Position numbers and translations under genes: made by a program
Assembly: GCA_963843975.1 (NCBI GenBank)
Contig: CAWJMG010000003.1
Span: 2,700,001-2,732,000, forward strand
Direction: 5' to 3'
Source: an uncultured Actinomycetes bacterium
GTDB taxonomy: Bacteria > Actinomycetota > Actinomycetes > S36-B12 > CAIYMF01
Length of the DNA: 32,000 bases
The notes under the pieces: model-generated
Seen by the model: the letters and a program-made list of their open reading frames with translations, nothing else
What the model was told of the DNA's origin: nothing
The model's database searches: none
Shown: positions 9,474 to 28,587 of the stretch, piece by piece
How the letters are laid out: each line of letters opens with the position of its first letter
How positions within the stretch are numbered: position 1 is the stretch's first letter

Positions 9474-9491
9474 CTCTCAACGATCTCTCAG
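9474..9491 (+). promoter_or_regulatory. Phased direct repeats CTCTCAAcgatCTCTCAG upstream of ABC operon
   Basis: CTCTCA[AG] at 9474 and 9485 (11-bp phase), 42 and 31 nt upstream of ATG 9516. Same repeat unit as at 14937, 22738 and (reverse strand) 28560. Confidence 0.4.
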
Positions 9492-9515
9492 GCGCGGGTC
9501 CCTAACGTCCCTGAC

Positions 9516-10253
9516 ATGGCTGACATCGCGATCCGCACCCAGGGGCTGAGCAAGTCCTACGGCGACACTCTCGCCCTCCGAGACCTAGACCTCTCGATCC
9601 CCACCGGCGAGGTGTTCGGGCTCCTCGGCCACAACGGCGCCGGCAAGACCACAACCGTGAACCTGCTGACCACGTTGCTCCAACCCACCTCCGGTGTCAT
9701 CGAGGTGGCGGGAGCCGACGCGTCCCTCCATCCGGACGACGTTCGGCGGATGATCGGCTACCTGCCCGAGAACGTGCAGTTCTACGACAACCTCACCACC
9801 ATGGAGAACCTCCGGTTCTTCGGACGGCTGTCCGGGCTGTCCAAGCCCGATGCGCGCATCCGTGAGGTCCTCTCCTACCTGGACTTCTCCGACCACGACA
9901 ACGATCGACTCGGGTCCTTCAGCAAGGGCATGCGACAGCGAGTGGGGATCGCCCAGGCGATCCTGCACGAGCCCTCGGTTCTGTTCCTGGACGAGCCGAC
10001 ATCCGGGCTCGACCCTGAGGGCGTCCGTCAGCTGCGTGACGTCATCGTGTCGCTCAACCGCGATCTCGGCATGACCATCTTCATGAACACGCACCTCCTG
10101 TCCGAAGTCACCAGGACGTGCACGAGCATCGGCGTCCTCCGCCGGGGCGAGCTGGCGTACCACGACTCGCTGTCGGCAACCCTTGCCGCATTCCCCGGCG
10201 AAAGCTCGCTGGAGGAGATCTACCTGCAGATCGAATCGGCAGGCACCGCATGA
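9516..10253 (+). CDS. ABC transporter ATP-binding protein (ABC-2/LanF/BcrA-like subfamily)
   Basis: Walker A GHNGAGKTT, Q-loop, signature FSKGMRQR, Walker B VLFLDEPTSGLD, H-loop NTHLL. Stop overlaps the next start (ATGA 10250-10253). Confidence 0.93.
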   Translation: MADIAIRTQGLSKSYGDTLALRDLDLSIPTGEVFGLLGHNGAGKTTTVNLLTTLLQPTSGVIEVAGADASLHPDDVRRMIGYLPENVQFYDNLTTMENLRFFGRLSGLSKPDARIREVLSYLDFSDHDNDRLGSFSKGMRQRVGIAQAILHEPSVLFLDEPTSGLDPEGVRQLRDVIVSLNRDLGMTIFMNTHLLSEVTRTCTSIGVLRRGELAYHDSLSATLAAFPGESSLEEIYLQIESAGTA

Positions 10254-11149
10254 ACGCCGTCGTGGCCACAGCACGCCAGGAGCTGATCAGCCTGAGGCGT
10301 GAGCGCCTTCCACTCGTCCTGCTCGTGGTGTTCGTGCTGATGGTGTCGGTCTCGAGCCTCATCGGCTGGTTGACCACGACGACCGTGAGCAGCGTCTGGG
10401 AGAAGACCACGCAGGCCGGCCTGACCAATGCCCCCAACCCGTTCGCGAACGTCTCCGGTCTGTACTTCGCCCGGAACACGGTCATCTACCTGGTCCTGAT
10501 CGGCGCGTTGATGGCGATCGTGGTCGGTGTCACCTCGGCCATGCGCGACCGCAAGGCACGCACTCTGGACATGGTCCTCAGCCGTCCGCTCACGGTCCGT
10601 TCGTACCTCCTGGGCAAGGTCCTCGGAGTGACCGTGTGGCTTGCAATCGTGCTCGTGAGCGTCGGAATCATCAGCTGGGGATCCATCTCGGCAATCTCGG
10701 GCTCGCCCCTTGGAGTCGCAGACACGGGCCGGTTGATCGCGTTCTACGCGATCGCGCTGCTCCTCCTTCTGTCATTCGTGATTCTGGGGATGGCGAGCGG
10801 CATCTACAGCTCGCGGGAGACCACCGCGCTGCTCGTGCCGATCAGCATCTGGAGCGTCGCGGCGTTCGTCCTACCGCAGATCGGCACCTCGGCGAACCCC
10901 GTATCTCTGCTCAACCCCGTCCCCGCGGTGAAGATCCCCGGCGGCGCGTTCGACACCCTGAACGCCGTCCTGAGCCCGTTGTCCGTGACCGAGCAGTTCA
11001 AGACCGCGAGCGGACTCCTGCTCAGAGACACCGAGGTCGTCGGCAGCCTGCCGTTCTCCCTGTCCGTCATCGTCGTTGCCGTCGGCATCGGCGCACTCGT
11101 CCTCGCGACCGTCAAGCGGGACCGCATCCGAGGAGCACTCCGTGACTGA
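10250..11149 (+). CDS. ABC-2-type transporter permease (first of two)
   Basis: MNAVVATARQELISLRRERLPLVLL is the typical N-terminus of ABC-2/NosY-type permeases, followed by about 6 hydrophobic spans. The upstream part of track ORF 10118..11149 overlaps the ATPase gene. Overlaps the next gene by 8 nt. Confidence 0.8.
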   Translation: MNAVVATARQELISLRRERLPLVLLVVFVLMVSVSSLIGWLTTTTVSSVWEKTTQAGLTNAPNPFANVSGLYFARNTVIYLVLIGALMAIVVGVTSAMRDRKARTLDMVLSRPLTVRSYLLGKVLGVTVWLAIVLVSVGIISWGSISAISGSPLGVADTGRLIAFYAIALLLLLSFVILGMASGIYSSRETTALLVPISIWSVAAFVLPQIGTSANPVSLLNPVPAVKIPGGAFDTLNAVLSPLSVTEQFKTASGLLLRDTEVVGSLPFSLSVIVVAVGIGALVLATVKRDRIRGALRD

Positions 11150-12113
11150 CACCCTGGTCATCGCACGCAAGGAGCTCCTGGATCTCCGGCGAAACCGCTT
11201 CCTGCTGCTCGTTCTCACGTTCGTCCTCGTCGCGGTCGTCATCTCCGTCGTGGTGTCGGCCACGCAGTTCGGCGTAAAGCTCGACGCCTACACCACCTAC
11301 ATCGACGCTCTGCGCGCCAGCGGCTCCACTGCCACGCCGGCTCCTCCGCAGCTGTTCCCGCTGCAGCTGCTGCGCGGCTCGATCGAGTACGTCGAGATCC
11401 TGGGCGCCCTGTTCGCGATCGTCATGGGATACGGCGTCATCGCCAAGGAGAAGCAGCGCGCAACCCTCCAGCTGATCTTCAGCAGGCCGATCGCTCGATA
11501 CGCCTTCCCTGCCGGGAAGCTCCTCGCTCTGGCGCTTGCCTGGCTGGTCGCGGTTCTCGTCATCTTCGGATCGGTCACCGTGACCGTGGCGCTCGTCGGG
11601 CATGCCCAGTTCGCTGCGATCGACTACCAGCGCCTGGCGATCGCAGCTTCGATGTCCTGGGCGTATGTGGTGTTGTGGAGCGCCACGGCGATGGGTCTTG
11701 CTTCGCTGACCAAGCGGCTCAGTACAGCGCTCATCGTCGCCCTGGTCCTCTGGCTCGTCGTGGTCCTGATCGTTCCCCAGATCGGCGACACCATGGATCC
11801 GGACAACCAGGTTCCCGGCGGGCTGTTCAAGAGCCTGTCCATTGCGAAACCCGACGAGAAGGCAGTGCTGGCCAACTTCACGGGGTTCGACACCGTGCGC
11901 AACGGCCTCGAGGTCTCGTCGATCACCAAGCAATACGAGCGATTCGCCTTCGCATTCCTCGGCATCAAGGACCAGTTCAACCAGCAGCCTCTTGCGACTG
12001 CGTGGACCGGCACCTGGAACAACGCGATGTCGCTGCTGCTCGCATCCATATCCGCGCTCGTGTTCGCCGTCCTCGCCTCAACCCGCACCAAGCTACTCAG
12101 GAGATCATCATGA
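11142..12113 (+). CDS. ABC-2-type transporter permease (second, paralogous)
   Basis: GTG 11142. VTDTLVIARKELLDLRRNRFLLLVL parallels the N-terminus of the preceding permease. Multiple TM spans. Stop overlaps the next start (ATGA 12110-12113). Confidence 0.8.
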   Translation: MTDTLVIARKELLDLRRNRFLLLVLTFVLVAVVISVVVSATQFGVKLDAYTTYIDALRASGSTATPAPPQLFPLQLLRGSIEYVEILGALFAIVMGYGVIAKEKQRATLQLIFSRPIARYAFPAGKLLALALAWLVAVLVIFGSVTVTVALVGHAQFAAIDYQRLAIAASMSWAYVVLWSATAMGLASLTKRLSTALIVALVLWLVVVLIVPQIGDTMDPDNQVPGGLFKSLSIAKPDEKAVLANFTGFDTVRNGLEVSSITKQYERFAFAFLGIKDQFNQQPLATAWTGTWNNAMSLLLASISALVFAVLASTRTKLLRRSS

Positions 12114-12739
12114 ACCGACGTACCGTCACAGCCCTCGGCGCCAGCGTTCTGCTCGGGGTCGCCGCTCTCACCGGCTGCTCCGCTGCCACCACGGCGGGGT
12201 CGGGCAGCCCATCCTCGAGCTCTGTCGTCCCAGCACCCGGGAGCCCTAGCGCGTCGAGTCCGGCCGCTTCCAGCCCCGACGGCAGCGCCCCCGCCGGCGT
12301 GGTCCTGCCGGTCCCCTCGAACCCGATCAGCAACACGTCGACGGCCTCGACGCTGGTGATCACGAAGGCGGCTGTCGAGGACAACGTCGATCCCGCCACC
12401 GGGAAGGCGATCGACGATCGACTGCAGCTGACGCTGAAGAACACCGGGACCGCGCCCCTCACGGGGTTCGAGGTCTACTACTCGATGACGGATGTCGTCA
12501 CGAAGCAGACGGAGGGCTACTACCAGAAGCTCGACGGCCTCAGCGTGGCTGCCGGCGCAGAGACCACGGTCTACTTCGACAAGCTCAACCAGCCGGGGCA
12601 CTACCCGGAGAACGAGTTCAGCATCTACCGGAGCTCGACGAACGAGGTCGACTTCGCCATCCAGGTGAGCGCGACCGGCGCCAAGGTCGCCGACGCCACT
12701 GCGGTCAAGTCGACGGGTACGGGCGAGAAGGTCGACTGA
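12110..12739 (+). CDS. Lipoprotein of unknown function (operon partner of ABC transporter)
   Basis: Signal peptide with lipobox MNRRTVTALGASVLLGVAALTGC|S. A Ser/Pro/Ala-rich linker is followed by a roughly 140-aa beta-rich looking domain (VITKAAVEDNVDPATGKAIDDRLQLTLKNTGTAPLTGFEVYYSMTD...). The upstream part of track ORF 11675..12739 is out of frame over the permease. Confidence 0.75.
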   Translation: MNRRTVTALGASVLLGVAALTGCSAATTAGSGSPSSSSVVPAPGSPSASSPAASSPDGSAPAGVVLPVPSNPISNTSTASTLVITKAAVEDNVDPATGKAIDDRLQLTLKNTGTAPLTGFEVYYSMTDVVTKQTEGYYQKLDGLSVAAGAETTVYFDKLNQPGHYPENEFSIYRSSTNEVDFAIQVSATGAKVADATAVKSTGTGEKVD

Positions 12740-12808: not shown

Positions 12809-13519
12809 GTGCCCATGCGGATCCTTGTCGTCGACGACGAGGTCAACCTCGCCAAGACCCTCAAGCAGGGCCTGGAGTCGGAGGGGTTCACCGTCGACAT
12901 CGCCCACAACGGGGAGGATGCGCTGTGGGCCGCAACGGAGCAGGGGTACGACCTCGTCGTCCTGGATCTCATGCTCCCTAAGCTCAACGGCTACAAGGTC
13001 GTGGAACGGCTGCGTCACCGGGGGGTGTGGACGCCGATCCTCATGCTCACGGCCAAGGACGGCGAGTACGACCAGGCGGACGCGCTCGACCTCGGTGCGG
13101 ATGACTACCTCACGAAGCCGTTCAGCTTCGTCGTCCTCCTGGCACGGATCCGGGCCCTGTTGCGGCGCATCGTGGCCGAGCGGCCGACTGTGCTAGCCGT
13201 CGGTGATCTGACGCTCGATCCCGTGACGTGCGCCGTGGCCCGAAGAGGAAACGCCGTCGAGCTGACCCCACGCGAGTTCGCGCTCCTGGAGTACCTGATG
13301 CGTAACCCAGGAAAGGTGGTCACCAAGAGTGAGCTCATCGACCACGTCTGGGATACGAACTTCGACGGACCTCTGAACGTCGTCGAGGTCTACGTCGGGT
13401 ACCTCCGCAAGAAGGTAGACGCGCCCTTCGACGTGCAGTCCATCGTCACCGTCCGCGGGTTCGGCTACCGGTTGGATGCTGTCGGCGAGCCCTCAGCCGC
13501 CAACGACAGCACCACCTGA
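12809..13519 (+). CDS. OmpR/PhoB-family response regulator (paralog 1)
   Basis: MPMRILVVDDE...LDLMLPKLNGY...LMLTAKDGEYDQADALDLGADDYLTKPFSFVVLLARIRALLRR...LTPREFALLEYLM...TVRGFGYRL. The alternative ATG is 12815. The 3' end overlaps the convergent kinase gene by 55 nt. Confidence 0.92.
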   Translation: MPMRILVVDDEVNLAKTLKQGLESEGFTVDIAHNGEDALWAATEQGYDLVVLDLMLPKLNGYKVVERLRHRGVWTPILMLTAKDGEYDQADALDLGADDYLTKPFSFVVLLARIRALLRRIVAERPTVLAVGDLTLDPVTCAVARRGNAVELTPREFALLEYLMRNPGKVVTKSELIDHVWDTNFDGPLNVVEVYVGYLRKKVDAPFDVQSIVTVRGFGYRLDAVGEPSAANDSTT

Positions 13520-14868
13520 GCGCCACCCAGATCGCTCGCGCCGATCAATGCGTCACCTCCATGGATCCGCGCGATCTGGCGGACGATGGCAAGTCCAAGA
13601 CCGCTACCGCCTTCGTCGCGGGAGCGGTGCTCGTCGAGCCTCACGAAGCGGTTGAACACGTCCGACCGCAACTCCGCGGGGATCCCGGGCCCGTCATCCT
13701 CAACGGTCAGCACGACCGTCGTGCCCTGGCTCCGGGACGTCAGTCGGATCGTCGACGATGCGAACCTGGCTGCATTGTCCACGAGGTTGCGCACGGCCTG
13801 GGCCACCTGGTCCGGGTCCGCGTGGACCCGGGCCGGCTCGACATCCAGCTGAACGACCAGTGCGGACTGGGCCCGTAGCCGGCGCGCCTCCGCCATGAGG
13901 ATGTCGTCGACGTCGACGTCCACCCGTCGCTTCGCCAGCGAGTGCTCCTCGGATCGGGCCAGCAGCAGGAGGTCTCCCACCAGTCGGGTCATCCGTTCGA
14001 CCTCGTCGTCGAGCACCCGCTGGGCGTCAGGTCCGATGTCACCGCCCCTCCGGCCGGCTACGTCCAACGACGCGCGCATCGAGGCCAGCGGGCTGCGCAG
14101 CTCATGACTGGCATCGGCCACGAACTGCCTCTGACTCGCCATGGCACTCTCTAGCCGGGCCAGCATCAGGTTCATCGTGACCGCCAGGCGTTGGATCTCG
14201 TCGTTCGCCGGAGGAACGGGTACGCGCTCATCCAGTTCTCCGCCGCCGATGCTGTCGACTCGCTGACGTATCCGATCGACGCTTGCCAACGATCGACCGA
14301 CCGCAGCCCAGGTGACCGCTCCGACGGCGACGAGCAGCAGTGGGGCGATGAGCAAGAGCGCCACCACGACGACGCCGACGGTCCTCTGCACGGGCACGAG
14401 CGACTGGGCGGCCACGACCGTCACGGGGCCACCCGTGCCTCCGGCCGCCACAGCCACCACCTGGTAGTCGGCGCCATCGACGAAGTCCAGCGGGGTCTGG
14501 ACCGACACCGGGCCCGACCCCGCCGCGATCGGTGCCACGATCGCCGCTTCGTCGGCGATGCTCGACGACGACACGAGAACGGCACCGGACGCATCGAGGA
14601 CTTGCACGATCGTTGTGTCACCGGGCGCCGCACCCGCCGTCACGAGGGCTGCGTCGACGCCCCCGGCTTCGATCTGAGCCGCGATGTCCTTCGCGCGCTG
14701 CTCGGTAGCCTGTTGGACCGACGACGACAGCGCGAACTGCAGCACCATCACCAAGCCGGCGCCAGCGACGACCAGGGCCACGAGCACCACCACGACGGAC
14801 GCCGCCGTCGAACGGGTACGAGCGCCCCGGCGGGCCCACCAGCCTGACGCGCCCGCTCTCAGGCTCAT
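13465..14868 (-). CDS. Sensor histidine kinase (paralog 1), convergent with its presumed regulator
   Basis: TM1 (VVVVLVALVVAGAGLVMVL), a roughly 130-aa extracytoplasmic segment (IVQVLDASGAVLVSSS...), TM2, HAMP. H-box FVADASHELRSPLASM, N-box VRNLVDNAARFA, then DDGPGI and GGSGLGLAIV. Confidence 0.92.
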   Translation of the reverse strand: MSLRAGASGWWARRGARTRSTAASVVVVLVALVVAGAGLVMVLQFALSSSVQQATEQRAKDIAAQIEAGGVDAALVTAGAAPGDTTIVQVLDASGAVLVSSSSIADEAAIVAPIAAGSGPVSVQTPLDFVDGADYQVVAVAAGGTGGPVTVVAAQSLVPVQRTVGVVVVALLLIAPLLLVAVGAVTWAAVGRSLASVDRIRQRVDSIGGGELDERVPVPPANDEIQRLAVTMNLMLARLESAMASQRQFVADASHELRSPLASMRASLDVAGRRGGDIGPDAQRVLDDEVERMTRLVGDLLLLARSEEHSLAKRRVDVDVDDILMAEARRLRAQSALVVQLDVEPARVHADPDQVAQAVRNLVDNAARFASSTIRLTSRSQGTTVVLTVEDDGPGIPAELRSDVFNRFVRLDEHRSRDEGGSGLGLAIVRQIARIHGGDALIGASDLGGAQVVLSLAAEGSPTASNR

Positions 14869-14936
14869 GCACGCGAGGATAGGCCCCGCCCCTGAGAGGA
14901 TGCTGAGCGCCGCCAGCGGCGGACGTGCCGCCCCTG

Positions 14937-14954
14937 GCTCTCAGCGGACTCTTG
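14937..14954 (+). promoter_or_regulatory. Phased direct repeats CTCTCAGcggaCTCTTGG upstream of acidic-protein gene 1
   Basis: CTCT[CT][AT]G at 14937 and 14948 (11-bp phase), 85 and 74 nt upstream of ATG 15022, in the HK/acidic-protein divergent intergenic region. CTCTTGGgtGGATC resembles CTCTTGGacGGATC of the 28560 site (gene orientation). Confidence 0.4.
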
Positions 14955-15021
14955 GGTGGATCCCTGCACTGTGTTCGAGAGCGGCTGCACCGCAGCCGCC
15001 GGACACAGAAGGGTCTTCCCC

Positions 15022-15438
15022 ATGCGCATCACCAGGAAGCACACCATCGCCGCAGCCGCCGCCGGAACCGTCATCGCACTGATCGGCAGTTCCGGGATCG
15101 CCATGGCCGCCGGCCAGCCGGCCCCCACCAGGACCGCAGGCACAATCGCCGTCCCGGCGGCAGCTTCGCCGGGCACCCCGTCGGCCGGCGACGAGAGCGC
15201 CGCCGAAGGCATCGACGACGGCACCAACCAGGGCCTGGACGCCAACACCAACGAGCCGGGCCACCAGGACGCCAGCTCCACCGGCGACGCGGCCGAGGGC
15301 CCTGAGTCCGGTGCAGAGGGAGCCGAGTCCGCCACCGACGACGGGACCGACAAGGGCCCGGACGCCAACCCCAACGAGCAGGGGCACCAGGACGCTGGCA
15401 GCGCGGGCGACGCCACTGACACCCAGAGCGACAACTAG
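15022..15438 (+). CDS. Small secreted hyper-acidic low-complexity protein, copy 1 (unrecognised family)
   Basis: ATG 15022 inside track ORF 14956..15438. Signal peptide MRITRKHTIAAAAAGTVIALIGSSGIAMA. Mature part has 22 D+E vs 2 K+R (hand count). Internal repeat DDGTNQGLDANTNEPGHQDASSTGDA / DDGTDKGPDANPNEQGHQDAGSAGDA (DNA 15214-15290 vs 15337-15413). Confidence 0.7.
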   Translation: MRITRKHTIAAAAAGTVIALIGSSGIAMAAGQPAPTRTAGTIAVPAAASPGTPSAGDESAAEGIDDGTNQGLDANTNEPGHQDASSTGDAAEGPESGAEGAESATDDGTDKGPDANPNEQGHQDAGSAGDATDTQSDN

Positions 15439-15445
15439 CAGATCA

Positions 15446-15485
15446 GCGCGTGTGGGCCACGGGACTCGCCGTGGCCCACACGCGC
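15446..15485. terminator. 17-bp perfect stem-loop between convergent genes
   Basis: GCGCGTGTGGGCCACGG (15446-15462), loop GACTCG, CCGTGGCCCACACGCGC (15469-15485). It lies between the stop of the acidic-protein gene (15438) and the stop of the minus-strand kinase (15621). Confidence 0.7.
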
Positions 15486-15620
15486 GCGCCTGATGCCCGG
15501 TTGGACCCGGGCGACCATCGCCAGGATGCGCAGCACCAGCCGCGCGGGCCGTGACTCGCAGTGAGACGCCGCCAGGACGCACGGAGGCCGGTCCCCGCTA
15601 CGGGTCAGGCCGTCGGACGC

Positions 15621-19572: not shown

Positions 19573-20958
19573 GTGCGCCGCGGTCGGCACCGTGCTGCCG
19601 TGGTAGGCCCCCGTCCCGGGGCGAGGCTTCGCTCCACCTTTGCCGCGACGCTCGTCGTCGCGGTGGCGCTGACGATCGGCGCTGTCGGCATGGTGTTGAT
19701 CCTGCGTGCGTCGTTGACCCAGACGGTCCGGGACTCGGCGCAGCAGCGAGCCAACGACGTAGGGACTTCGGTGGCAGCGGGGGGTGCCGCCCGCGACGCG
19801 ATCGTGGTCGGCAACGTCAGTGAGCGTTCCGTCGTACAAGTGCTCGATCCTCAGGGGACTGTGCTGGTTTCCAGCCCCGAGATCGACGGCGAGCCCGCAC
19901 TGACCTCGGCGCGCCCGGCACCAGGGAGTGTCCAGGTCTCCACCCAGAGGGTCCCGGTGGCTGACCAGGAGTCGTTCGTCGTGGTGTCCCGCGGTGTTCA
20001 CACGCCAACCGGCGATGCGATCGTGGTCGTTGCGCAATCGCTAGACGCGGTGGACGCCAGCGTGACGACGGTCGAACGCCTTCTTGTCCTCGGATTCCCC
20101 GTCGTCCTCCTGGTCGTCGCCGGGTCGGTGTACTACGTCGTCGGCAGGACGCTTCGCCCGGTCGAGGAGATCCGGCGGCGGGTCGCTGCGATCAGCGCCA
20201 CGGACCTTGACATGCGGGTTCCGGTGCCGGCTGCCGACGATGAGGTGGGCCGGCTCGCCCTCACGATGAACAGGATGCTCGATCGGTTGCAGGACTCTCA
20301 GGCCACGCAGCGTCGGTTCGTCGCTGATGCCAGCCACGAGCTGCGCAGCCCGCTGGCGGCCATTCGGGCGACCGTCGAGGTGGGCCTGGAGCATCCCGGA
20401 TCGCAGCCTTGGGACGATGCTGCCCCAGCGGTTCTGGCGGAGACCGATCGGCTCAGCAGGCTGGTGGACGACCTGCTGCTCCTCGCGCGTTCCGACGAGA
20501 TCGAGAGCCCCCGAATTCATCGTGATGTCGATCTCGACGACATCATGATGATCGAGGCAGATCGCCTTGGACGGCTGGGGAAGATCGACGTCTCGGTCGA
20601 TGTCACGCCCGCGCGGGTGGCTGGCGATCGTCAGCAGCTCGAACGGCTGGTGCGCAACTTGTGCGACAACGCCGTGCGTTACGCGACCTCATCGGTCGCT
20701 CTCTCGGTCGGCATGGACGGTGCCTGGGCAGTCCTGGTCGTGCAGGACGACGGACCGGGTATCCCTGTCGCGGACCGAGATCGCGTCTTCGACCGGTTCG
20801 TACGCCTGGATCCGGCCCGGGACCGACTCTCCGGTGGCGCCGGGCTCGGCCTGGCGATTGTCTTCGAGGTGGCGCGCGCTCACGGCGGAACAGCGGCCGT
20901 GGAGGACTCGGCCTCCGGAGCACGCTTCGTTGTGCGCCTCCCCGCAATGAGGACGTGA
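19573..20958 (+). CDS. Sensor histidine kinase (paralog 2), convergent with its presumed regulator
   Basis: GTG start. TM1 (ATLVVAVALTIGAVGMVLIL), sensor segment (VVQVLDPQGTVLVSSPEI...), TM2, HAMP. H-box FVADASHELRSPLAAI, N-box VRNLCDNAVRYA, DDGPGI, GGAGLGLAIV. Clear paralog of 13465..14868. Confidence 0.92.
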   Translation: MRRGRHRAAVVGPRPGARLRSTFAATLVVAVALTIGAVGMVLILRASLTQTVRDSAQQRANDVGTSVAAGGAARDAIVVGNVSERSVVQVLDPQGTVLVSSPEIDGEPALTSARPAPGSVQVSTQRVPVADQESFVVVSRGVHTPTGDAIVVVAQSLDAVDASVTTVERLLVLGFPVVLLVVAGSVYYVVGRTLRPVEEIRRRVAAISATDLDMRVPVPAADDEVGRLALTMNRMLDRLQDSQATQRRFVADASHELRSPLAAIRATVEVGLEHPGSQPWDDAAPAVLAETDRLSRLVDDLLLLARSDEIESPRIHRDVDLDDIMMIEADRLGRLGKIDVSVDVTPARVAGDRQQLERLVRNLCDNAVRYATSSVALSVGMDGAWAVLVVQDDGPGIPVADRDRVFDRFVRLDPARDRLSGGAGLGLAIVFEVARAHGGTAAVEDSASGARFVVRLPAMRT

Positions 20959-21017
20959 CTTCGTCCTAGCGGCGAAGCGAGCTTCCAACGGTTCGGGGAC
21001 CCGGCCCTCAGCTCCGG

Positions 21018-21713
21018 CTACCCACCGTTGTCGGCGAGGCGGTATCCCACCCCGCGTACGGTCTCGACGCCCTGCCGGTGGAACGGCGCGTCGATCTTGC
21101 GGCGCAGGTATCCGATGTAGACCTCGACGACGTTGGAGTCTCCCTCGTAGTTCTCGTCCCACACGGCTGCGAGGATCTCGCTCTTGGTGACGACATCGCC
21201 CTTGCGGCGAAGGAGGAAGTGCAGGAGCCCGAACTCTCGAGGAGTCAAAGCAATCTGCTTGTCTGCCCGAAGCACGTGGCGACGAGCCGGATCCAGAGTG
21301 AGATCCCCGGCTTGCAGGACGGCGGGGCGTTCTGGTGCTCCGCGACGTAGCAATGCGCGCAGTCGCGCCACCAGCACGACGAAGGAGAACGGTTTCGTCA
21401 GATAGTCATCGGCCCCCAGGTCGAACGCGTCCGCCTCGTCGTGCTCGCCGTCCTTGGCCGTGAGCATGAGGACAGGCGTCCAGATCTCCTCGTCACGCAG
21501 GCTCTGACAGACCCGGTATCCGTTCAGCTTGGGCAGCATGATGTCCAGGACGATCACGTCGTAGCTGCCCTCACGGGCCATCCAGAGTCCCTGCTCACCG
21601 TCCCGAGCCACATCGACCTGGAATCCCTCGGCGGCGAGACCACGCTGTACGGCGTCGACCAGCCTCGGCTCGTCGTCGACCAGCAGCACCTTCACCCCAT
21701 CACTGTCTCTCAT
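21018..21713 (-). CDS. OmpR/PhoB-family response regulator (paralog 2)
   Basis: VKVLLVDDE...LDIMLPKLNGY...LMLTAKDGEHDEADAFDLGADDYLTKPFSFVVLVARLRALLRR...LTPREFGLLHFLL...TVRGVGYRL. Near-identical motif strings to 12809..13519. ATG 21713 overlaps the 3' end of the upstream PAP2 gene by 14 nt; the alternative GTG is 21695. Confidence 0.92.
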   Translation of the reverse strand: MRDSDGVKVLLVDDEPRLVDAVQRGLAAEGFQVDVARDGEQGLWMAREGSYDVIVLDIMLPKLNGYRVCQSLRDEEIWTPVLMLTAKDGEHDEADAFDLGADDYLTKPFSFVVLVARLRALLRRGAPERPAVLQAGDLTLDPARRHVLRADKQIALTPREFGLLHFLLRRKGDVVTKSEILAAVWDENYEGDSNVVEVYIGYLRRKIDAPFHRQGVETVRGVGYRLADNGG

Positions 21714-22629
21714 CTGACCTGAGACGACCCTGAGTTCCGATCCGTGGTTGCTGCAGTTGTTCGTTGAGTCGGGGGCCTCGTGACGATCCTGGCCGCAGCA
21801 CTGGCTCTCGCGACGGTCCCAGGAGAATCAGGGCCCCCGTTACGGCCAACACCGAGGCCAGGCCGACAACGTAGAGCGGGCTGGCCGCCTCCCCGAGCTC
21901 GGGACCTGATCGTGTCTGAGGAGCAACTGCGCCAGCGATGACCGCCGCGCCCATCACCGCCCACCAGCCCCACCCTGAGGTCGATGCGGAGAACGGAGCA
22001 CCTACCCGCGACCGTCCCACCGTGACACCCTCTGCCTCGTCCGCCGCCCGCCGGCGTACCAGTGCCGAGTGCCAGGTCACGCCGAGCAGGACTCCGCCGA
22101 CTGCGTCACTGGGGCGATGCCACCCCGCTGCCACGGTGCCGGCGGCAACGAGGCTCACCCAGGCCACGAGAGGTCCCCAGCATCGACGAGCGAGCTTCGG
22201 GTTCAACGTTGATGCCACAGCGAGAGCGAACCCGGTGGCAATAGTCGCGTGCCCGCTGGGGAACGAACCGCCAGCAACGATCTGACCGACCGGCGAAGCG
22301 CCTGCTGCAGTGGGCAGGAAGTGTTTGAGCAGCTCGGCAGACACGACGGCACCGATGACAGCTGCCGCAATCCGCACGGCGGGTCCGCGGCCCTGCCGTC
22401 GATACGTGCGCCAGCTGACTACGAGCAGACCCACGGACAGAGTGACGATCGTGATCGTCGACAAGGCCAGGCGCTCCATCACGATCAGCCCGGATCCGCT
22501 GTCCAACCGGCTGACGAGCGCCGAACGATCCGCCGCAGCGACGCGTGGGACGAACGTGATCAGCGCATAGAGGACGATCAGAGCGACGGCCGAGATCGAC
22601 GCGGTGGCGCGTCGCGAAGGGGACCTCAT
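21700..22629 (-). CDS. PAP2-superfamily membrane protein with degenerate catalytic motifs and extra C-terminal TM region
   Basis: Start taken at MRSPSRR (complement of 22627-22629) inside track ORF 21700..22680. C2 motif FPSGHA is present. C3 has only the H-x3-D part (GWHRPSDAVGG). The C1 K-x6-RP motif is not recognisable (ELLKHFLPTAAG). About 100 extra residues follow with two hydrophobic spans. Same strand as regulator 21018..21713 and overlapping it. Confidence 0.75.
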   Translation of the reverse strand: MRSPSRRATASISAVALIVLYALITFVPRVAAADRSALVSRLDSGSGLIVMERLALSTITIVTLSVGLLVVSWRTYRRQGRGPAVRIAAAVIGAVVSAELLKHFLPTAAGASPVGQIVAGGSFPSGHATIATGFALAVASTLNPKLARRCWGPLVAWVSLVAAGTVAAGWHRPSDAVGGVLLGVTWHSALVRRRAADEAEGVTVGRSRVGAPFSASTSGWGWWAVMGAAVIAGAVAPQTRSGPELGEAASPLYVVGLASVLAVTGALILLGPSREPVLRPGSSRGPRLNEQLQQPRIGTQGRLRSDERQ

Positions 22630-22737
22630 GACCACAGCCTGCGCACTGCACCTGTGGCGACGCTGAGGATCAGCCGTCAAGCCGGCTCGCGTGCGCCGGG
22701 TCTCGGGAAGTCGCGCACCGTGACGATGGATAAGGGC

Positions 22738-22756
22738 CTCTCATGCGCTCTCATGC
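22738..22756 (+). promoter_or_regulatory. Tandem direct repeat CTCTCATGCgCTCTCATGC upstream of acidic-protein gene 2
   Basis: A 9-mer repeated at 22738 and 22748 (10-bp phase), 100 and 90 nt upstream of ATG 22838. A further CTCTCAG sits at 22785-22791. Lies in the PAP2/acidic-protein divergent intergenic region. Confidence 0.4.
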
Positions 22757-22837
22757 CCACCACAGCCCCCGGGGGGCAACGTGTCTCTCAGTCCTCGACA
22801 CCCCGCTCGCGGACCCACGCATCCATCAGGAGTAACC

Positions 22838-23209
22838 ATGAAGCTCACCAAGAAGGGTGTTGCCGGAACTGTCGGCGCCGCCGCCCTGCTCGCCAGCGTC
22901 GGTCTGGGCCTGGGCTCCGTCGCGCAGGCCGCCCCGGCCACCTCGACGATCCTGCCGGCCGTCGCGGCCGTCAGCGCAACCACGGCGGACGCTGAGACCG
23001 CCGACTCGGCGAAGGACACCGACTCCCTCCAGGAAGGCGACCAGACGACGCCGGACACCGGCACGGCTGCCGAGACCGAGTCGACCACGGAGTCCGCCGC
23101 CGGCAGCGAGACCGCGTCGGAGACCGGCCCGTCGGACGGGAACGACGGCGGCCACGCTGACGCCCCCGGCGCCGACGTGAACCACGAGGGCGGTGCGGAC
23201 GAGAAGTAG
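22838..23209 (+). CDS. Small secreted hyper-acidic low-complexity protein, copy 2 (unrecognised family)
   Basis: ATG 22838 lies 6 nt after CAGGAG, inside track ORF 22781..23209. Signal peptide MKLTKKGVAGTVGAAALLASVGLGLGSVAQA. Mature part has 20 D+E vs 2 K (hand count), with T/S/E/D repeats and the end GNDGGHADAPGADVNHEGGADEK. Confidence 0.7.
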   Translation: MKLTKKGVAGTVGAAALLASVGLGLGSVAQAAPATSTILPAVAAVSATTADAETADSAKDTDSLQEGDQTTPDTGTAAETESTTESAAGSETASETGPSDGNDGGHADAPGADVNHEGGADEK

Positions 23210-26287: not shown

Positions 26288-27139
26288 ATGACCTCCTCCC
26301 CCAGCACTTCCCTTGCGACGCGTCAGTTGCTGAACAAGGTCCCCGAGATCACCGTGGTGTTCTGGGTCATCAAGATCCTGTGCACCACGGTCGGGGAGAC
26401 CTTCGCCGACCTGCTCAACGAGAAGCTGGGCCTAGGGCTCACCCTGACGACGTACGTCATGGGGACGTTCCTGGCGCTGATGCTGATCGTGCAGTTCTCA
26501 TACCGCCGCTACGTGCCCTCGGTGTACTGGACCGTCGTGGTGCTGCTCAGCGTCGTCGGCACGCTGATCACCGACAACATGACCGACAACTTCGGCATAC
26601 CGCTGGCGACGTCGACGTTGCTCTTCGCTGCCGCTCTCGCTGTCACGTTCGTGGTCTGGTACGCCGTCGAAGGAACCCTGTCGATCCACAGCATCACCTC
26701 GATCCGGCGCGAGGTCTTCTACTGGCTCACAATCCTGTTCACCTTCGCCCTGGGCACCGCCGCCGGCGACCTGGTCGGGGAGAAGTTCGGCCTGGGCTAC
26801 CTGTGGTCCGTCGTGCTGTGGGGGTCGCTGATCACGGTCATCGCGGTGGCGCACTCCCGGTTCGCCCTCAACGCTGTCCTGGCGTTCTGGTCCGCCTACA
26901 TCCTCACCCGCCCGCTGGGTGCCTCGATCGGGGACCTGCTGTCCCAGAAGCCGGTCGACGGCGGACTCGGCCTGGGCATCCTGAAGATCAGCGTCGTGTT
27001 CCTGCTGACCATCGCTGCGCTGGTCGGCTACCTCACCAGGACCCGCGCGGACGTCACCGAGTACCACCTCTCACCCGAGGACGACGCTCTCTTGGACCAG
27101 CAGGACACCACCGCGGCTCCTGCGCCCCGCATCGCATGA
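26288..27139 (+). CDS. COG4705-like polytopic membrane protein with four internal repeats
   Basis: KVPEITVVFWVIKILCTTVGETFADLL is the hallmark N-terminus of this family. The unit [FY]W-x(8-10)-G-x(3-4)-D recurs four times: VVFWVIKILCTTVGETFAD, SVYWTVVVLLSVVGTLITD, VFYWLTILFTFALGTAAGD, LAFWSAYILTRPLGASIGD. Stop overlaps the next start (ATGA 27136-27139). Confidence 0.8.
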   Translation: MTSSPSTSLATRQLLNKVPEITVVFWVIKILCTTVGETFADLLNEKLGLGLTLTTYVMGTFLALMLIVQFSYRRYVPSVYWTVVVLLSVVGTLITDNMTDNFGIPLATSTLLFAAALAVTFVVWYAVEGTLSIHSITSIRREVFYWLTILFTFALGTAAGDLVGEKFGLGYLWSVVLWGSLITVIAVAHSRFALNAVLAFWSAYILTRPLGASIGDLLSQKPVDGGLGLGILKISVVFLLTIAALVGYLTRTRADVTEYHLSPEDDALLDQQDTTAAPAPRIA

Positions 27140-27828
27140 GCGGCCCAACTGCCGTTGCAGGCCATGTCCGGCTGCAGCCACAGGCGCTGCTCGAGCACGC
27201 ACGCCGGGCATGGCCCGTCCTGCTTGTCGCGTCTTCGGCTGCGGTGATCCTCGCGGGACTCACGGACGCCGTCGGCGAGCACGACGGCGTGACCGCAGTC
27301 GACCGGCCTGTCGCCGCCTGGTTCGCCGCGCACCGAACCTTCGCGCAGGGCAGCCTCGGGCTCCAGCTCGCGCACGCCACCTCACCTGCCGTCCTGATCG
27401 CACTGGTGCTGCTCACCGCCGTCGTCCTGCTGCGACGAGGCCTTCGCAGCGAAGCGCTCCTTCTCACCGGTGCGACGGTGGTCGCCTACGCCTCCGGTGC
27501 GGTGCTCAAGTTCGGCGAGCACCGTGCGCGGCCGTCGTCGCCAGTGAACCTGGCGCCTGAGGGTGAGCCGTCGTACCCATCGGGTCACGTCCTGGTCGTG
27601 GCCGTGATCGCCTTCACCGTCGTCGCCCTGGCGTGGTCGCACCTGTCCCGTGCCGGCCGGGTGACGGCCGTGGCCGTCGCCTCGGTCGCTGTCGGGGGCA
27701 TCGCCCTGGACAGGCTGGTCGTGGGGGCGCACTGGCTCACCGACCTTGCCGGGTCTCTCGCCTTGGCCGTGGTCATCGTGAGCGTCGTCATCGCAGCGCT
27801 GCGATTGCTGCCAGAAAAGGCTGCGTAG
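27136..27828 (+). CDS. PAP2-family phosphatase (canonical motifs)
   Basis: This is the last 230 codons of track ORF 26380..27828. C1 KFGEHRARP, C2 YPSGH, C3 DRLVVGAHWLTD (the complete K-x6-RP / PSGH / [SD]R-x5-H-x3-D signature), with about 6 TM. Translationally coupled to the COG4705-like gene. Confidence 0.87.
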   Translation: MSGPTAVAGHVRLQPQALLEHARRAWPVLLVASSAAVILAGLTDAVGEHDGVTAVDRPVAAWFAAHRTFAQGSLGLQLAHATSPAVLIALVLLTAVVLLRRGLRSEALLLTGATVVAYASGAVLKFGEHRARPSSPVNLAPEGEPSYPSGHVLVVAVIAFTVVALAWSHLSRAGRVTAVAVASVAVGGIALDRLVVGAHWLTDLAGSLALAVVIVSVVIAALRLLPEKAA

Positions 27829-28028: not shown

Positions 28029-28481
28029 TCAGTCGTCCGAACCCGAGTCGTCGGAGCCCGAGCCGGAGTCGTCGGACGAGCCGTCGTGGCTGTCTCCGGA
28101 CTGCGAGCCGGCCTGGCCGTTCTCGTGGTCACCGTCGTCCGTGGCCTGCTCGCCCTGGTCGTCGTCACCCTGCGCGTCGGCGTTCTCGCCCTGGTCGTCG
28201 GACTCCACAGACTGGCTGGCAGCGGGCTCGGCAGTCTCCGCCTGGTTGCTGCTCTCGACCGCGTCCGGGGTATCGGACACCTCTGGGGTCTCGGCGGCGT
28301 CGGGGGTCTTGGAGACCTCAGGGGACTCAGACTCGGTCTGGTCAACCTCGGGAATGGAGGTGGCCACCACGTCGGGGGTCGACGAGACCCGCGGGGTGTC
28401 GGCGTGGCTGGCGGCGAACGCAGCCGTCGAGCCGAGCAGCACGCCGGCAACGGCGAGGGGAACAACGAGTTGCAGCTTCAT
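28029..28481 (-). CDS. Small secreted hyper-acidic low-complexity protein, copy 3 (unrecognised family)
   Basis: Track ORF. RBS GAAGGA lies 7 nt upstream. Signal peptide MKLQLVVPLAVAGVLLGSTAAFA. Mature part has 36 D+E vs 2 K+R (hand count). Short repeats: PEVS[KD]TPDA, DDQGE, SDDSGSGSDDSGSDD. Confidence 0.72.
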   Translation of the reverse strand: MKLQLVVPLAVAGVLLGSTAAFAASHADTPRVSSTPDVVATSIPEVDQTESESPEVSKTPDAAETPEVSDTPDAVESSNQAETAEPAASQSVESDDQGENADAQGDDDQGEQATDDGDHENGQAGSQSGDSHDGSSDDSGSGSDDSGSDD

Positions 28482-28559
28482 GGTGGTCCTTCGCGTTGGG
28501 GGTCGAGTCCTCTCTGCTCAGCATCGGCTGGCGGCAGTGGGTAACCAGCCAACGGGCAT

Positions 28560-28587
28560 CCAAGATCCGTCCAAGAGGTCGCCAAGA
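28560..28587 (-). promoter_or_regulatory. Three CCAAGA (gene orientation TCTTGG) direct repeats at exact 11-bp phase
   Basis: CCAAGA at 28560, 28571 and 28582. In the orientation of gene 28029..28481 this reads TTCTTGGcgacCTCTTGGacggATCTTGGatgc, 79-106 nt upstream of its ATG, in the least GC-rich part of the intergenic region. Confidence 0.45.

What the first reader, a model, noticed from the sequence alone, without database searches (positions are those of the whole stretch)
15022..15438. Unrecognised family of tiny hyper-acidic secreted proteins tracking the TCS/PAP2 genes - copy 1, with an internal 41-codon repeat
Seen: a 138-aa ORF with a clear Sec-type signal peptide, followed by a D/E/G/N/T-rich body (22 Asp+Glu vs 2 Lys+Arg by hand count). 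The body contains two near-identical segments, DDGT[ND][QK]G[LP]DAN[TP]NE[PQ]GHQDA..GDA (DNA 15214-15290 vs 15337-15413, 123-bp register). The gene is divergent from sensor kinase 13465-14868. Two more ORFs (22838-23209, 28029-28481) have the same design: a signal peptide plus an acidic tail with D-x-N-x-E-x-G-H / DDGDHENG-like strings. Each of those sits beside a PAP2 gene. I do not recognise these as any named family. Inference: they are a co-evolving extracytoplasmic accessory of the kinase/PAP2/ABC modules. Possible roles are a divalent-cation buffer or signal presenter for the kinases, or an anionic decoy for cationic antimicrobial peptides.
Basis: partly seen in the sequence, partly recalled or inferred. 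Interest (0 to 1): 0.78.

Follow-up and report, generated by a model that had tools for sequence, protein, structure and literature searches.

The report
Kinase-linked secreted acidic motif protein
The ORF is a real gene for a small, exported, very acidic, unstructured protein with two copies of a near-invariant histidine motif; it belongs to an undescribed family that sits beside sensor-kinase systems in many actinobacteria, appears to be switched on by them, and most plausibly binds metal cations outside the cell.

Summary
ORF 15022-15438 (+) is a genuine stand-alone gene with its own promoter, 5' hairpin, ribosome-binding site and terminator hairpin. It encodes a Sec-type signal peptide plus a 109-aa body predicted to be disordered (22 D+E, 2 K+R). 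The body holds two copies of the unit DDG-x-[DN]-x-G-P-D-A-N-P-N-E-P-G-H-Q-D-A.

It is not an orphan. 93 relatives were found (78 loci), mostly in Nocardioidaceae and other Actinomycetota, and no Pfam, NCBIfam, PDB or literature match exists. In 43 of 49 well-flanked loci an OmpR-type regulator or kinase gene lies within 500 bp.

Upstream of nearly all family genes there are three TCTCAG/TCACAG direct repeats with a 10/11-bp period. These resemble the M. tuberculosis PhoP operator and are absent from background DNA. Mirror copies precede the kinase or regulator genes. The protein is therefore very probably a core output of that signalling system.

The PAP2 link is local only (3 of 49 loci). 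ORF B belongs to a second, equally kinase-linked family with related motifs. ORF C is an orphan with the same design and its own triple-repeat promoter.

Function is inferred, not shown. The best guess is an extracellular divalent-cation binder or buffer, analogous to but not homologous with SilE/PcoE/ZraP.

The parts
15022..15438 (+). ORF A: 138-aa precursor of a secreted, acidic protein predicted to be disordered (family A)
15022..15108 (+). Sec-type signal peptide (aa 1-29, cleavage after AMA)
   Evidence: Read from the sequence. The same n/h/c layout is conserved in all relatives. No SignalP run.
15214..15273 (+). Motif unit 1: DDGTNQGLDANTNEPGHQDA (aa 65-84)
15337..15396 (+). Motif unit 2: DDGTDKGPDANPNEQGHQDA (aa 106-125)
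14939..14955 (+). Two direct-repeat boxes, TCTCAG-N5-TCTTGG, facing gene A. Putative response-regulator operator; relatives have three boxes.
14892..14909 (-). Two direct-repeat boxes (CGCTCAG-N4-CTCTCAG on the - strand) facing the kinase gene. Putative autoregulation site.
14967..14972 (+). -10-like hexamer CACTGT, 10 nt after the last box. It lies in the conserved GCAnnnTG column of the relatives.
   Evidence: inference; no TSS data
14981..14999 (+). 5'-UTR hairpin GCGGCTGC-ACC-GCAGCCGC, conserved with covariation in the family
15008..15013 (+). Shine-Dalgarno-like GAAGGG, 8 nt before the ATG
15446..15485 (.). 17-bp perfect hairpin after the stop codon (-44.5 kcal/mol, z -6.1). Terminator-like, no U tract. 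It lies between A and the convergent kinase gene.
   Evidence: not found by the U-tract scan
13465..14868 (-). Sensor histidine kinase (HAMP-HisKA-HATPase_c), divergent from A. Its ~120-aa extracellular domain is net acidic.
12809..13519 (+). OmpR/PhoB-family response regulator, convergent with the kinase gene with a 55-bp 3' overlap
9475..12739 (+). Box pair (9475-9491) followed by an ABC ATPase, two ABC-2 permeases and a beta-sandwich lipoprotein. This module recurs next to family A.
22739..22765 (+). Triple direct repeat TCTCAT-N4-TCTCAT-N5-CCACAG, 99 nt before ORF B
22838..23209 (+). ORF B: 123-aa secreted acidic protein of family B (motifs LQEGDQTTPD and SDGNDGGHADAPGADVNHEGGADEK)
19573..22680 (.). 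Module associated with B: kinase 19573-20958 (+), regulator 21018-21713 (-), PAP2 21700-22680 (-). Each is preceded by box pairs (19519-19535 +, 21719-21735 -, 22652-22668 -).
28029..28481 (-). ORF C: 150-aa secreted acidic orphan with no detectable homologues
28549..28587 (-). TCTTGG x3 (plus CGTTGG) at an 11-bp period, upstream of ORF C
   Evidence: 0.01 expected by chance
26288..27828 (+). DUF347 membrane protein (26288-27139) and PAP2 (27136-27828) as an overlapping pair. DUF347 recurs near family A.

Best explanation
ORF A is a monocistronic gene for a Sec-exported protein of about 11 kDa that is strongly acidic and predicted to be disordered. Its only conserved content is one to three copies (two here) of an 18-20-residue unit, [SD]DG-x-[DN]-x-GPDANPNEPGHQDA.

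It is a core member of the regulon of the adjacent PhoP/OmpR-type two-component system. The phosphorylated regulator binds the TCTCAG/TCACAG/TCTTGG direct repeats (10/11-bp period), which sit about 10 nt upstream of the -10 element, pho-box style. It activates gene A, and through mirror-image boxes it also acts on the kinase/regulator genes and the ABC-2 exporter operon.

Outside the cell, each motif uses its Asp/Asn/Glu/Gln/His side chains, held in turns by the Pro/Gly residues, to bind a divalent metal cation. The protein therefore acts as an inducible extracellular cation sponge, buffer or chaperone. It lowers (or hands over) the free cation that the acid-rich kinase sensor domain responds to, which closes a feedback loop.

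Shown here: the gene is real, the family exists, the motif is conserved, no stable fold is predicted, the kinase-system adjacency holds and the operator-like repeats are conserved.

Inferred: regulator binding and activation, metal binding, which metal, and whether the purpose is detoxification or capture.
For: Gene and family:
- Third-codon-position entropy is 1.02 against 0.42 and 0.25.
- 93 relatives were found in 78 genome loci. 54 representative clusters were found among 1.84 billion proteins.
- The motif is near-invariant: G5 118/119, D7 118/119, E12 115/119. Units were located by their GHQD core, so those four columns are invariant by construction; in alignment A1 E78, G80, H81, Q82, D83 and A84 are invariant.
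- Mature regions have a median of 29% D+E, about 0% K+R, 3% hydrophobic residues and 0 Cys. The median His count (2) equals the commonest motif copy number.
- AF2 gives pLDDT 50 and no secondary structure.

Regulation:
- A regulator or kinase gene lies within 500 bp in 43/49 loci. The architectures are conserved.
- Triple boxes occur in 41/73 distinct upstream regions and at least double boxes in 53/73. In background 160-nt windows the figures are 0/9431 and 0.5%. The position is fixed at 77-100 nt before the start codon.
- Mirror boxes precede the kinase or regulator genes.
- The boxes resemble the M. tuberculosis PhoP site, a 7-bp TCACAGC repeat with a 4-bp spacer (PMC4832192). Mtb PhoP is the second-best structural relative of the window's regulator.

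Metal link:
- The best NCBIfam model for both TCS proteins is the heavy-metal CztRS/SilRS/CopRS subfamily, though below cut-off.
- DUF347 lies within 6 kb in 22/49 loci. DUF347 with an undecaprenyl phosphatase is reported as Pb-induced in Frankia (PMC4531530).
- CDF transporters with His-rich tails recur in 4 loci.
- In a Thermoplasmatota MAG the homologue has no kinase system nearby. It lies about 1.2 kb downstream of a His-rich ZIP zinc transporter, one gene apart, with ArsR-type regulators nearby.
- The window itself carries CDF and DUF305 genes.
- The kinase sensor domains are net acidic with no conserved His or Cys, as expected for cation sensing through carboxylates.

Against a lineage-specific signal:
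- The motif is invariant across genera.
- Same-genome paralogues, each with its own kinase system, carry the same core motif (L015/L018 and L064/L087).
Against: - No experiment or expression data exists for any member.
- The motif matches no known metal site. It is not a canonical EF-hand loop (position 6 is Glu, position 12 is Ala). It has only one His and no Cys or Met.
- Many recurrent neighbours point to the cell envelope rather than to metals: the ABC-2 exporter with lipoprotein, an FtsX-type permease, DedA, phosphoesterases and PAP2.
- The heavy-metal TCS models score below their curated cut-offs.
- In a monoderm, a freely secreted sponge could diffuse away.
- Regulator binding to the repeats is inferred from sequence only.
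Confidence: 0.45

Rival explanations
1. Co-sensor or feedback modulator. The secreted protein binds the extracellular domain of the neighbouring kinase, alone or metal-loaded, and tunes its activity. This would make a three-component system like HbpS-SenS-SenR or CpxP-CpxA.
For: The gene is immediately adjacent to the kinase/regulator genes and usually divergent from them. The operator is shared by both promoters. Precedents are HbpS-SenS-SenR (PMC4991794) and cg3286-copRS (PMC3140484).
Against: Kinase sensor domains share only about 40% identity between architectures and have few conserved residues, while the motif is invariant. Both partners are net acidic. Same-genome paralogues with the same motif would cross-talk. 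Archaeal-MAG homologues have no kinase nearby.
Confidence: 0.2
2. Polyanionic decoy or envelope-charge factor. It soaks up cationic antimicrobial peptides or polycations as part of an envelope-stress regulon.
For: The protein has extreme negative charge. Neighbours are typical of peptide-antibiotic modules: ABC-2 and FtsX-type transporters, DedA and PAP2. The regulator is also similar to PmrA/BasR.
Against: Charge alone does not explain near-invariant Gly, Pro, His and Gln positions, nor the ZIP/ArsR context in archaeal MAGs.
Confidence: 0.1
3. Precursor of a secreted signalling peptide. The repeated unit is cut out and sensed by the kinase, giving an autoinduction loop.
For: There are multiple tandem copies of one conserved unit behind a signal peptide. 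The operator sits in front of both the precursor and the TCS genes, as in comCDE or agr circuits (that comparison is from my own knowledge; the boxes are).
Against: The motif is invariant across families and orders, whereas pheromones diversify. There are no conserved flanking cleavage sites and no adjacent processing protease or dedicated exporter. Same-genome paralogues carry the same motif.
Confidence: 0.08
4. Nucleator or inhibitor of metal-phosphate mineral at the cell surface. It would work with the phosphate-releasing enzymes in the neighbourhood (PAP2, metallophosphoesterase, acid phosphatase).
For: Phosphoesterases recur nearby: Metallophos in 10 loci, PF04185 in 4, and PAP2 in the window. 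The Frankia paper proposes export and precipitation for DUF347 with the phosphatase. That acidic disordered proteins control mineral nucleation is from my own knowledge.
Against: This is entirely indirect. The phosphatases are present in a minority of loci.
Confidence: 0.06
5. Not a real gene: a chance open frame in GC-rich DNA, or the antisense ORF is the true gene.
For: Long antisense ORFs overlap it at 14865-15434 and 14941-15582. None of seven exact sequences tried (four predicted homologues, ORFs A-C) is in a 15-billion-protein collection.
Against: Codon-position entropy, the conserved signal peptide and motif, and the conserved promoter, SD and terminator all fit the + frame.
Confidence: 0.01

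Closest known systems
SilE / PcoE (periplasmic 'molecular sponge' of the sil/pco metal-resistance determinants)
   Same: Small and signal-peptide-bearing. Intrinsically disordered, with repeated short metal-ligand motifs (PMC5008109). From my own knowledge: encoded next to a CusRS/SilRS-type two-component system and controlled by it.
   Different: No sequence similarity (no Pfam hit). SilE uses His/Met motifs for Ag+/Cu+, whereas this motif has one His, many Asp/Asn/Glu and no Met or Cys. The host is a monoderm actinobacterium with no periplasm.
ZraP, CpxP, Spy (small periplasmic proteins encoded divergently from, and induced by, their two-component systems)
   Same: The gene is divergent from the TCS genes and is apparently driven from a shared regulator-bound intergenic region. 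A feedback role is likely.
   Different: Those proteins are folded helical oligomers with LTXXQ motifs (from my own knowledge). This one has no predicted structure and no Pfam hit.
C. glutamicum copRS / cg3286 locus
   Same: An actinobacterial OmpR-type TCS with a divergently transcribed 'secreted protein of unknown function'. Both promoters are activated from one direct-repeat site in the intergenic region, in response to a metal (PMC3140484).
   Different: The operator differs (TGAAGATTT-N2-TGAAGATTT). cg3286 heads an operon with a multicopper oxidase. Whether cg3286 resembles this family was not tested.
HbpS-SenS-SenR of Streptomyces
   Same: A secreted accessory protein encoded beside a kinase/regulator pair. 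It binds iron or haem and signals to the kinase (PMC4991794, PMC3754957).
   Different: HbpS is a folded octamer of a different family.
M. tuberculosis PhoP operator and E. coli pho box
   Same: Direct repeats of a 7-bp TCACAGC-like unit with a 4-bp spacer (PMC4832192). The last repeat ends about 10 nt before the -10 element, as in pho-box promoters (from my own knowledge).
   Different: Here there are usually three repeats with a 10/11-bp period and TCTCAG/TCTTGG variants. Binding was not tested.
EF-hand / DxDxDG / cadherin DxNDNxP calcium sites
   Same: Alternating Asp/Asn ligands (D-A-N-P-N-E-P) in a Pro/Gly-rich loop.
   Different: Not a canonical 12-residue loop. There is no EF-hand or cadherin Pfam hit. 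The invariant His-Gln is atypical for Ca2+.

Membership tests
SilE/PcoE metal sponge family | Sequence homology to SilE/PcoE | tested here: not met
   No Pfam or NCBIfam hit even at E<=10 or E<=1. No PDB sequence hit.
SilE/PcoE metal sponge family | HxxM / MxxH soft-metal motifs | tested here: not met
   The mature ORF A has no Met or Cys (sequence). The family median is 0 Cys, and the median His count (2) equals the commonest motif copy number.
SilE/PcoE metal sponge family | Exported and intrinsically disordered in the apo state | tested here: met
   Signal peptide read from the sequence. AF2 pLDDT 50 with no secondary structure. 3% hydrophobic residues. This is prediction only.
CpxP/Spy/ZraP family | Helical fold with LTXXQ motifs (Pfam LTXXQ) | tested here: not met
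   No Pfam hit. No helices predicted.
Canonical EF-hand Ca2+ loop | 12-residue loop D-x-[DN]-x-[DN]-G-x-[ILV]-x-x-x-[ED] | tested here: not met
   The motif DANPNEPGHQDA has Glu at position 6 and Ala at position 12. No EF-hand Pfam hit.
Target of an OmpR/PhoB-family response regulator | Direct repeats at about one helical turn, placed just upstream of or overlapping the -35 position | tested here: met
   Triple repeats in 41/73 upstream regions against 0/9431 background windows, at a fixed distance from the start codon. Window boxes lie at 14939-14955, 10 nt before a -10-like hexamer.
Target of an OmpR/PhoB-family response regulator | Physical binding and regulator-dependent transcription | not testable with these tools
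   Needs EMSA or footprinting, and expression in a regulator mutant.
Sec-secreted protein | Basic n-region, hydrophobic h-region, AxA cleavage site; no lipobox, no sortase signal, no C-terminal TM segment | tested here: met
   Read directly in ORF A and in 74 relatives. No dedicated predictor was run.
Gram-positive peptide-pheromone precursors (ComC/AgrD/Phr type) | Rapidly diversifying mature peptide and an adjacent processing or export gene | tested here: not met
   The motif is near-invariant across families and orders. No recurrent protease or AgrB-like neighbour appears in the neighbourhood census.
One family comprising ORFs A, B and C | Detectable homology of the mature regions | tested here: inconclusive
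   hhalign aligns A and B only in the signal peptide, and C matches neither. L077 and L086 combine B's LQEG[DN]Q with A's EPGHQDA/EAGHQDA. Common B-type motifs (VDHQFDGEE) share an HQ core with A.

The most novel reading that the evidence does not exclude
Families A and B are the diffusible third component of a large, unrecognised class of actinobacterial signalling systems. The near-invariant HQ-containing motif, loaded with a metal ion, would be the actual ligand read by the acid-rich kinase sensor domain. The kinase would then sense the environment through a secreted disordered 'antenna' that it also induces.
Probability: 0.15. Interest if true: 0.8.

Novelty: new variant of a known kind. 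Interest (0 to 1): 0.63.

Why it matters
Two-component systems of soil actinobacteria are mostly orphans with respect to both signal and output. Here a whole subfamily of PhoP/OmpR-type systems, found in about 100 loci across Nocardioidaceae and other Actinomycetota and on a mobile element in this window, acquires three things:
- a predicted operator;
- a predicted core regulon: the small secreted protein, autoregulation, an ABC-2 exporter with its lipoprotein, and often DUF347;
- a chemically suggestive effector.

The effector is a new type of short linear motif in a secreted disordered protein. It can be tested with a synthetic 20-mer. If it binds a specific metal, it would be a compact new metal-binding tag and would give a handle on the signal these kinases sense. 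The family also shows how small low-complexity genes in GC-rich genomes escape family databases.

Tried and rejected
- Pfam, NCBIfam and PDB sequence searches with A, B, C and typical relatives gave only sub-threshold matches to signal peptides or low-complexity regions.
- AF2 of A with a 9-sequence alignment gave no structure, so no fold search was run on it.
- AF2 of the neighbouring lipoprotein as a single sequence gave a moderate beta-sandwich (pLDDT 60). Foldseek against the PDB returned only generic Ig/FnIII-like domains with TM about 0.3, which is uninformative.
- Searches of plasmid records with the window DNA and with proteins A and B gave no close relative and no protein match; the low-complexity filter may contribute. 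The origin of the window therefore remains unknown beyond 'high-GC actinobacterial mobile element'.
- Exact-sequence look-ups of seven proteins found none in the collection.
- Literature searches for the motif strings found nothing relevant.
- The first word-indexed protein search badly under-sampled the family: 8 hits against 93 by genome scan.
- The sigma-70 and U-tract terminator scan found nothing in 14850-15650, as expected for this GC content. The promoter and terminator calls rest on comparative evidence and folding instead.
- My first operator regex, with a fixed 11-bp period, failed because the first spacing is 10 bp. This was corrected.
- No boxes were seen upstream of DUF347 at 26288.
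Full report
**1. The observation**

ORF 15022-15438 (+) is present as described.
- It starts at an ATG preceded by GAAGGG (15008-15013).
- It encodes 138 aa with a typical Sec signal peptide, MRITRKHTIAAAAAGTVIALIGSSGIAMA|AGQ. The mature part has 22 Asp+Glu, 2 Lys+Arg and 2 His.
- The internal duplication is real. 15185-15290 and 15308-15413 are 76% identical at a 123-bp register, and the core aligns without gaps.
- The window is about 69% GC, so long ORFs occur on both strands here (14865-15434 - and 14941-15582 -). The + frame is nevertheless the one under selection. GC3 is 0.87. In 119 distinct DNA copies of the motif collected from relatives, the entropy at codon positions 1/2/3 is 0.42/0.25/1.02.

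**2. It is a family, and larger than it first looks**

A word-indexed search found only 8 relatives. All were small signal-peptide proteins with one or two copies of a strikingly conserved unit.
- A profile search of 1.84 billion representative proteins found 54.
- A scan of one genome per species found 93 relatives in 78 loci.
- Most are in Nocardioides, Marmoricola, Aeromicrobium and other Propionibacteriales. Others are in Promicromonospora, Demequina, Cellulomonadaceae, Microbacteriaceae and Nanopelagicales. Two contigs are binned as Thermoplasmatota.
- The 74 proteins I could reconstruct have a median length of 120 aa. Their mature regions are 29% D+E, about 0% K+R, 3% hydrophobic and Cys-free. 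The motif occurs twice in 52, once in 19 and three times in 2.
- The unit is G-[PAT]-[DN]-[QVT]-G-P-D-A-N-P-N-E-P-G-H-Q-D-A. Units were anchored on GHQD; the other positions are conserved in 92 to 119 of 119 copies for G5, P6, D7, A8, N9, P10, N11, E12, P13, G14 and A18.
- AlphaFold2 gives pLDDT 50 and no secondary structure.
- Nothing in Pfam, NCBIfam, PDB sequences or the searchable literature corresponds to it.

**3. Context**

The window is a mosaic typical of a mobile element. It carries:
- a TrwC relaxase (28972-31998);
- a Mutator/IS256 transposase (6926-8257) and an IS1595 fragment;
- CDF transporters and a DUF305 gene;
- three intact OmpR-type two-component systems, plus a lone fourth kinase whose regulator gene an IS has disrupted;
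- two PAP2 genes, a DUF347 gene and an ABC-2 transporter.

The stretch around A has the order ABC ATPase, ABC-2, ABC-2, lipoprotein, regulator (+), kinase (-), A (+). This order is reproduced gene for gene in metagenome contigs carrying A relatives.

I ran a census of the 78 genome loci by tblastn with the window's proteins.
- A regulator or kinase gene lies within 500 bp of the small gene in 66/78 loci, and in 43/49 loci that have at least 3 kb on both sides.
- DUF347 lies within 6 kb in 22/49, and the ABC-2 plus lipoprotein module in 13/49.
- PAP2 lies within 6 kb in only 3/49.

Two architectures dominate. In one the regulator runs forward, the kinase reverse, and the small gene is divergent from the kinase, as in the window (16 loci). 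In the other the small gene is divergent from a regulator-kinase operon (34 loci). An unbiased clustering of neighbouring ORFs adds metallophosphoesterases (10 loci), an unannotated 524-aa membrane protein (11), FtsX-type permeases (8), DedA (7), His-rich CDF (4) and acid phosphatase (4).

**4. A conserved operator and promoter**

Upstream of nearly every family member, whatever the architecture, there are three direct repeats, (C)TCTCAG-N4-TCTCAG-N5-TC(A/T)CAG(C). In window-type loci the last box is TCTTGG.
- A strict pattern finds the triple in 41/73 distinct upstream regions and at least a double in 53/73. In 160-nt background windows from the same loci the figures are 0/9431 and 0.5%. The first box always lies 77-100 nt (median 89) before the start codon. 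Most of the 'missing' cases show recognisably degenerate boxes.
- About 10 nt after the last box lies a conserved GCAnnnTG, a CAnnnT -10-like element. Next comes a 6-7-bp hairpin, then the ribosome-binding site.
- The hairpin is supported by covariation. 82.7% of cells are paired, against 26-51% when the partner is slid. There are 53 double-change cells against 9-24.
- Mirror-image pairs of boxes face the divergent kinase or regulator genes.
- In the window the elements are: kinase-side boxes 14892-14909; A-side boxes TCTCAG 14939-14944 and TCTTGG 14950-14955 (the distal third box has decayed); CACTGT 14967-14972; hairpin 14981-14999.
- After the stop codon comes a 17-bp perfect hairpin, 15446-15485 (-44.5 kcal/mol, z -6.1).
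- The ABC-2 operon also has a box pair, at 9475-9491.
- The repeat unit and its 7+4 geometry match what is described for M. tuberculosis PhoP, TCACAGC direct repeats with a 4-bp spacer (PMC4832192). Mtb PhoP is the second-best solved relative of the window's regulator.

I conclude that the small gene is a core, directly controlled output of the adjacent system, and that the system autoregulates. This rests on sequence evidence only.

**5. ORFs B and C**

B (22838-23209) has its own relatives and, in metagenomes, a broad family. The design is a signal peptide, then D[TN][ILV]Q-x-GDQT[TS]PD, then an acidic spacer, then a C-terminal SDG[PN](D)GGH[AE]DP-x-G-x-V[DN]H[QE][FG]-x-G-x-E.
- 22 of 26 loci have a regulator or kinase gene within 500 bp. 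Most exceptions are contig edges.
- The upstream regions again carry 10/11-bp direct repeats. In the window this is TCTCAT-N4-TCTCAT-N5-CCACAG at 22739-22765.
- Box pairs also precede the PAP2, regulator and kinase genes of that module. PAP2 therefore does look co-regulated locally, but this is not general.
- Profile comparison aligns A and B only over the signal peptide. However, two Nanopelagicales-type A proteins (L077, L086) carry B's LQEG[DN]Q motif together with A's [EP/EA]GHQDA, and the common B motif VDHQFDGEE shares an HQ core with A. I regard A and B as probably related or modular, but this is not proven.

C (28029-28481 -) has no detectable homologue and no similarity to either profile. 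It does have GC3 of 0.85, a signal peptide, 36 D+E against 2 K+R, and three perfect TCTTGG boxes plus a fourth degenerate one at an 11-bp period upstream (28549-28587; 0.01 expected by chance). It is most likely a real, similarly regulated orphan.

**6. What it most likely does**

The shown facts constrain the function in four ways.
- (a) The protein is exported and unstructured. The only conserved information is a short motif made almost entirely of metal-ligating side chains (Asp, Asn, Glu, Gln, one His) spaced by Pro/Gly.
- (b) The motif is invariant across families and orders, and between same-genome paralogues that each have their own kinase system (L015/L018, L064/L087). Meanwhile the kinase sensor domains diverge to about 40% identity and keep few conserved residues. 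This argues for an invariant partner such as an ion. It argues against a co-evolving protein surface or a lineage-specific pheromone.
- (c) The sensor domains are themselves acidic and lack conserved His or Cys.
- (d) Metal-homeostasis genes recur nearby. The kinase and regulator score best, though below cut-off, with the heavy-metal CztRS/SilRS/CopRS models. DUF347 is a frequent neighbour, and the DUF347 plus phosphatase pair is reported as Pb-induced in Frankia (PMC4531530). His-rich CDFs also recur. In a Thermoplasmatota MAG the homologue lies about 1.2 kb downstream of a His-rich ZIP transporter, one gene apart, with ArsR-type regulators nearby and no kinase system.

My best explanation is therefore an inducible extracellular divalent-cation binder (a sponge, buffer or chaperone) that feeds back on the signal. 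It would work like SilE/PcoE or ZraP without being related to them (PMC5008109). The genetic layout is like cg3286-copRS in C. glutamicum (PMC3140484). I put this at about 0.45.

Which metal is involved, and whether the purpose is detoxification (CDF context) or capture (ZIP context), remains open.

**7. Rivals**

- A kinase co-sensor of the HbpS/CpxP type (0.2).
- A polyanionic decoy or envelope-charge factor, suggested by the ABC/FtsX/DedA/PAP2 neighbours (0.1).
- A multi-copy pheromone precursor (0.08).
- A mineral-nucleation partner of the nearby phosphatases (0.06).
- A non-gene (0.01, refuted).

**8. Verdict**

The PAP2 link is only local, and the three ORFs are not demonstrably one family.

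The kind of system is known: a small extracytoplasmic protein encoded beside, and controlled by, a two-component system. This family, its motif, its operator and its 5' hairpin are undescribed. I rate it a new variant of a known kind, interest about 0.63.

Noticed in passing
window 14981-14999; alignment A5 of 53 loci: A 6-7-bp hairpin sits in the 5' UTR of family-A genes, between the -10-like element and the ribosome-binding site. It is conserved with compensatory changes: 82.7% of cells paired against 26-51% in slid controls. It may be an mRNA-stabilising 5' stem-loop or a regulatory element. B and C lack it.
   Followed up: partly
window 13465-13519; L001 4424-4478: The regulator (+) and kinase (-) genes are convergent and overlap by 55 bp at their 3' ends. 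The same 55-bp overlap is seen in a metagenome relative. Kinase 19573-20958 (+) and regulator 21018-21713 (-) are also convergent. This is unusual for two-component systems, which are normally co-transcribed, and it implies separate promoters and possible antisense interference.
   Followed up: partly
window 15621-17807 (-): A second kinase gene (C-terminal part of ORF 15621-17807) is followed by ORF 16973-17596. That ORF fuses an IS481-like HTH_23/HTH_32 N-terminus to a Trans_reg_C domain, so the cognate response regulator has been truncated by an IS insertion. In relative L005 the intact kinase-regulator-DUF347 set occupies this position.
   Followed up: partly
window 26288-27828: DUF347 (26288-27139) and PAP2 (27136-27828) overlap by ATGA and form an operon-like pair. 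The same pairing is reported as lead-induced in Frankia (PMC4531530). No TCTCAG-type boxes were seen upstream.
   Followed up: partly
window 28549-28587 (-): Three perfect TCTTGG repeats plus CGTTGG occur at an 11-bp period upstream of orphan ORF C. TCTTGG is also the promoter-proximal box of window-type family-A promoters, so C may answer to the same or a related regulator.
   Followed up: partly
L065 5283-8219; L056 1650-5365: Family-A homologues occur on two contigs binned as Thermoplasmatota (archaea), each with two Cys residues and no kinase system. One lies about 1.2 kb downstream of a ZIP zinc transporter with a His-rich loop, one gene apart, with ArsR-type regulators nearby. The other is directly upstream of an ABC ATPase, two ABC-2 permeases and a 210-aa gene. 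This could be horizontal transfer or mis-binning; I did not resolve which.
   Followed up: partly
L074 and L080, upstream of the small gene: In two loci the adjacent regulator is only 35-37% identical to the window's. There the TCTCAG boxes are replaced by CTTAAG-N6-CTTAAG-type repeats. From memory, these resemble the TTAAG-N6-TTAAG site of the Fe(II)/Ca-responsive BqsR of Pseudomonas.
   Followed up: no
window 9475-9491 and 9516-12739: A box pair, TCTCAACGATCTCTCAG, lies 25 nt before the ABC ATPase gene. In several relatives (L019, L048, L051, L087, L056) the small gene is instead placed directly upstream of this ABC-2/lipoprotein operon. This suggests a functional coupling between the secreted protein and the exporter.
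   Followed up: partly
window 15446-15485: A perfect 17-bp GC-rich hairpin without a U tract lies between the convergent gene A and the kinase gene. It is probably a bidirectional terminator of the kind common in actinobacteria.
   Followed up: yes
window 13-2393: A VanY-like M15 D-Ala-D-Ala carboxypeptidase is followed by another OmpR-type regulator/kinase pair. This is a cell-wall-related module at the left edge of the window, unrelated to the acidic proteins.
   Followed up: no
whole family: None of seven exact sequences tried (four predicted homologues from isolate genomes, window ORFs A-C) is present in a 15-billion-protein collection, though my start-codon choices may differ from the deposited calls. 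The word-indexed search also found a tenth of what a genome scan found. These small low-complexity genes are probably often uncalled, or called with other starts or strands, in GC-rich genomes.
   Followed up: partly
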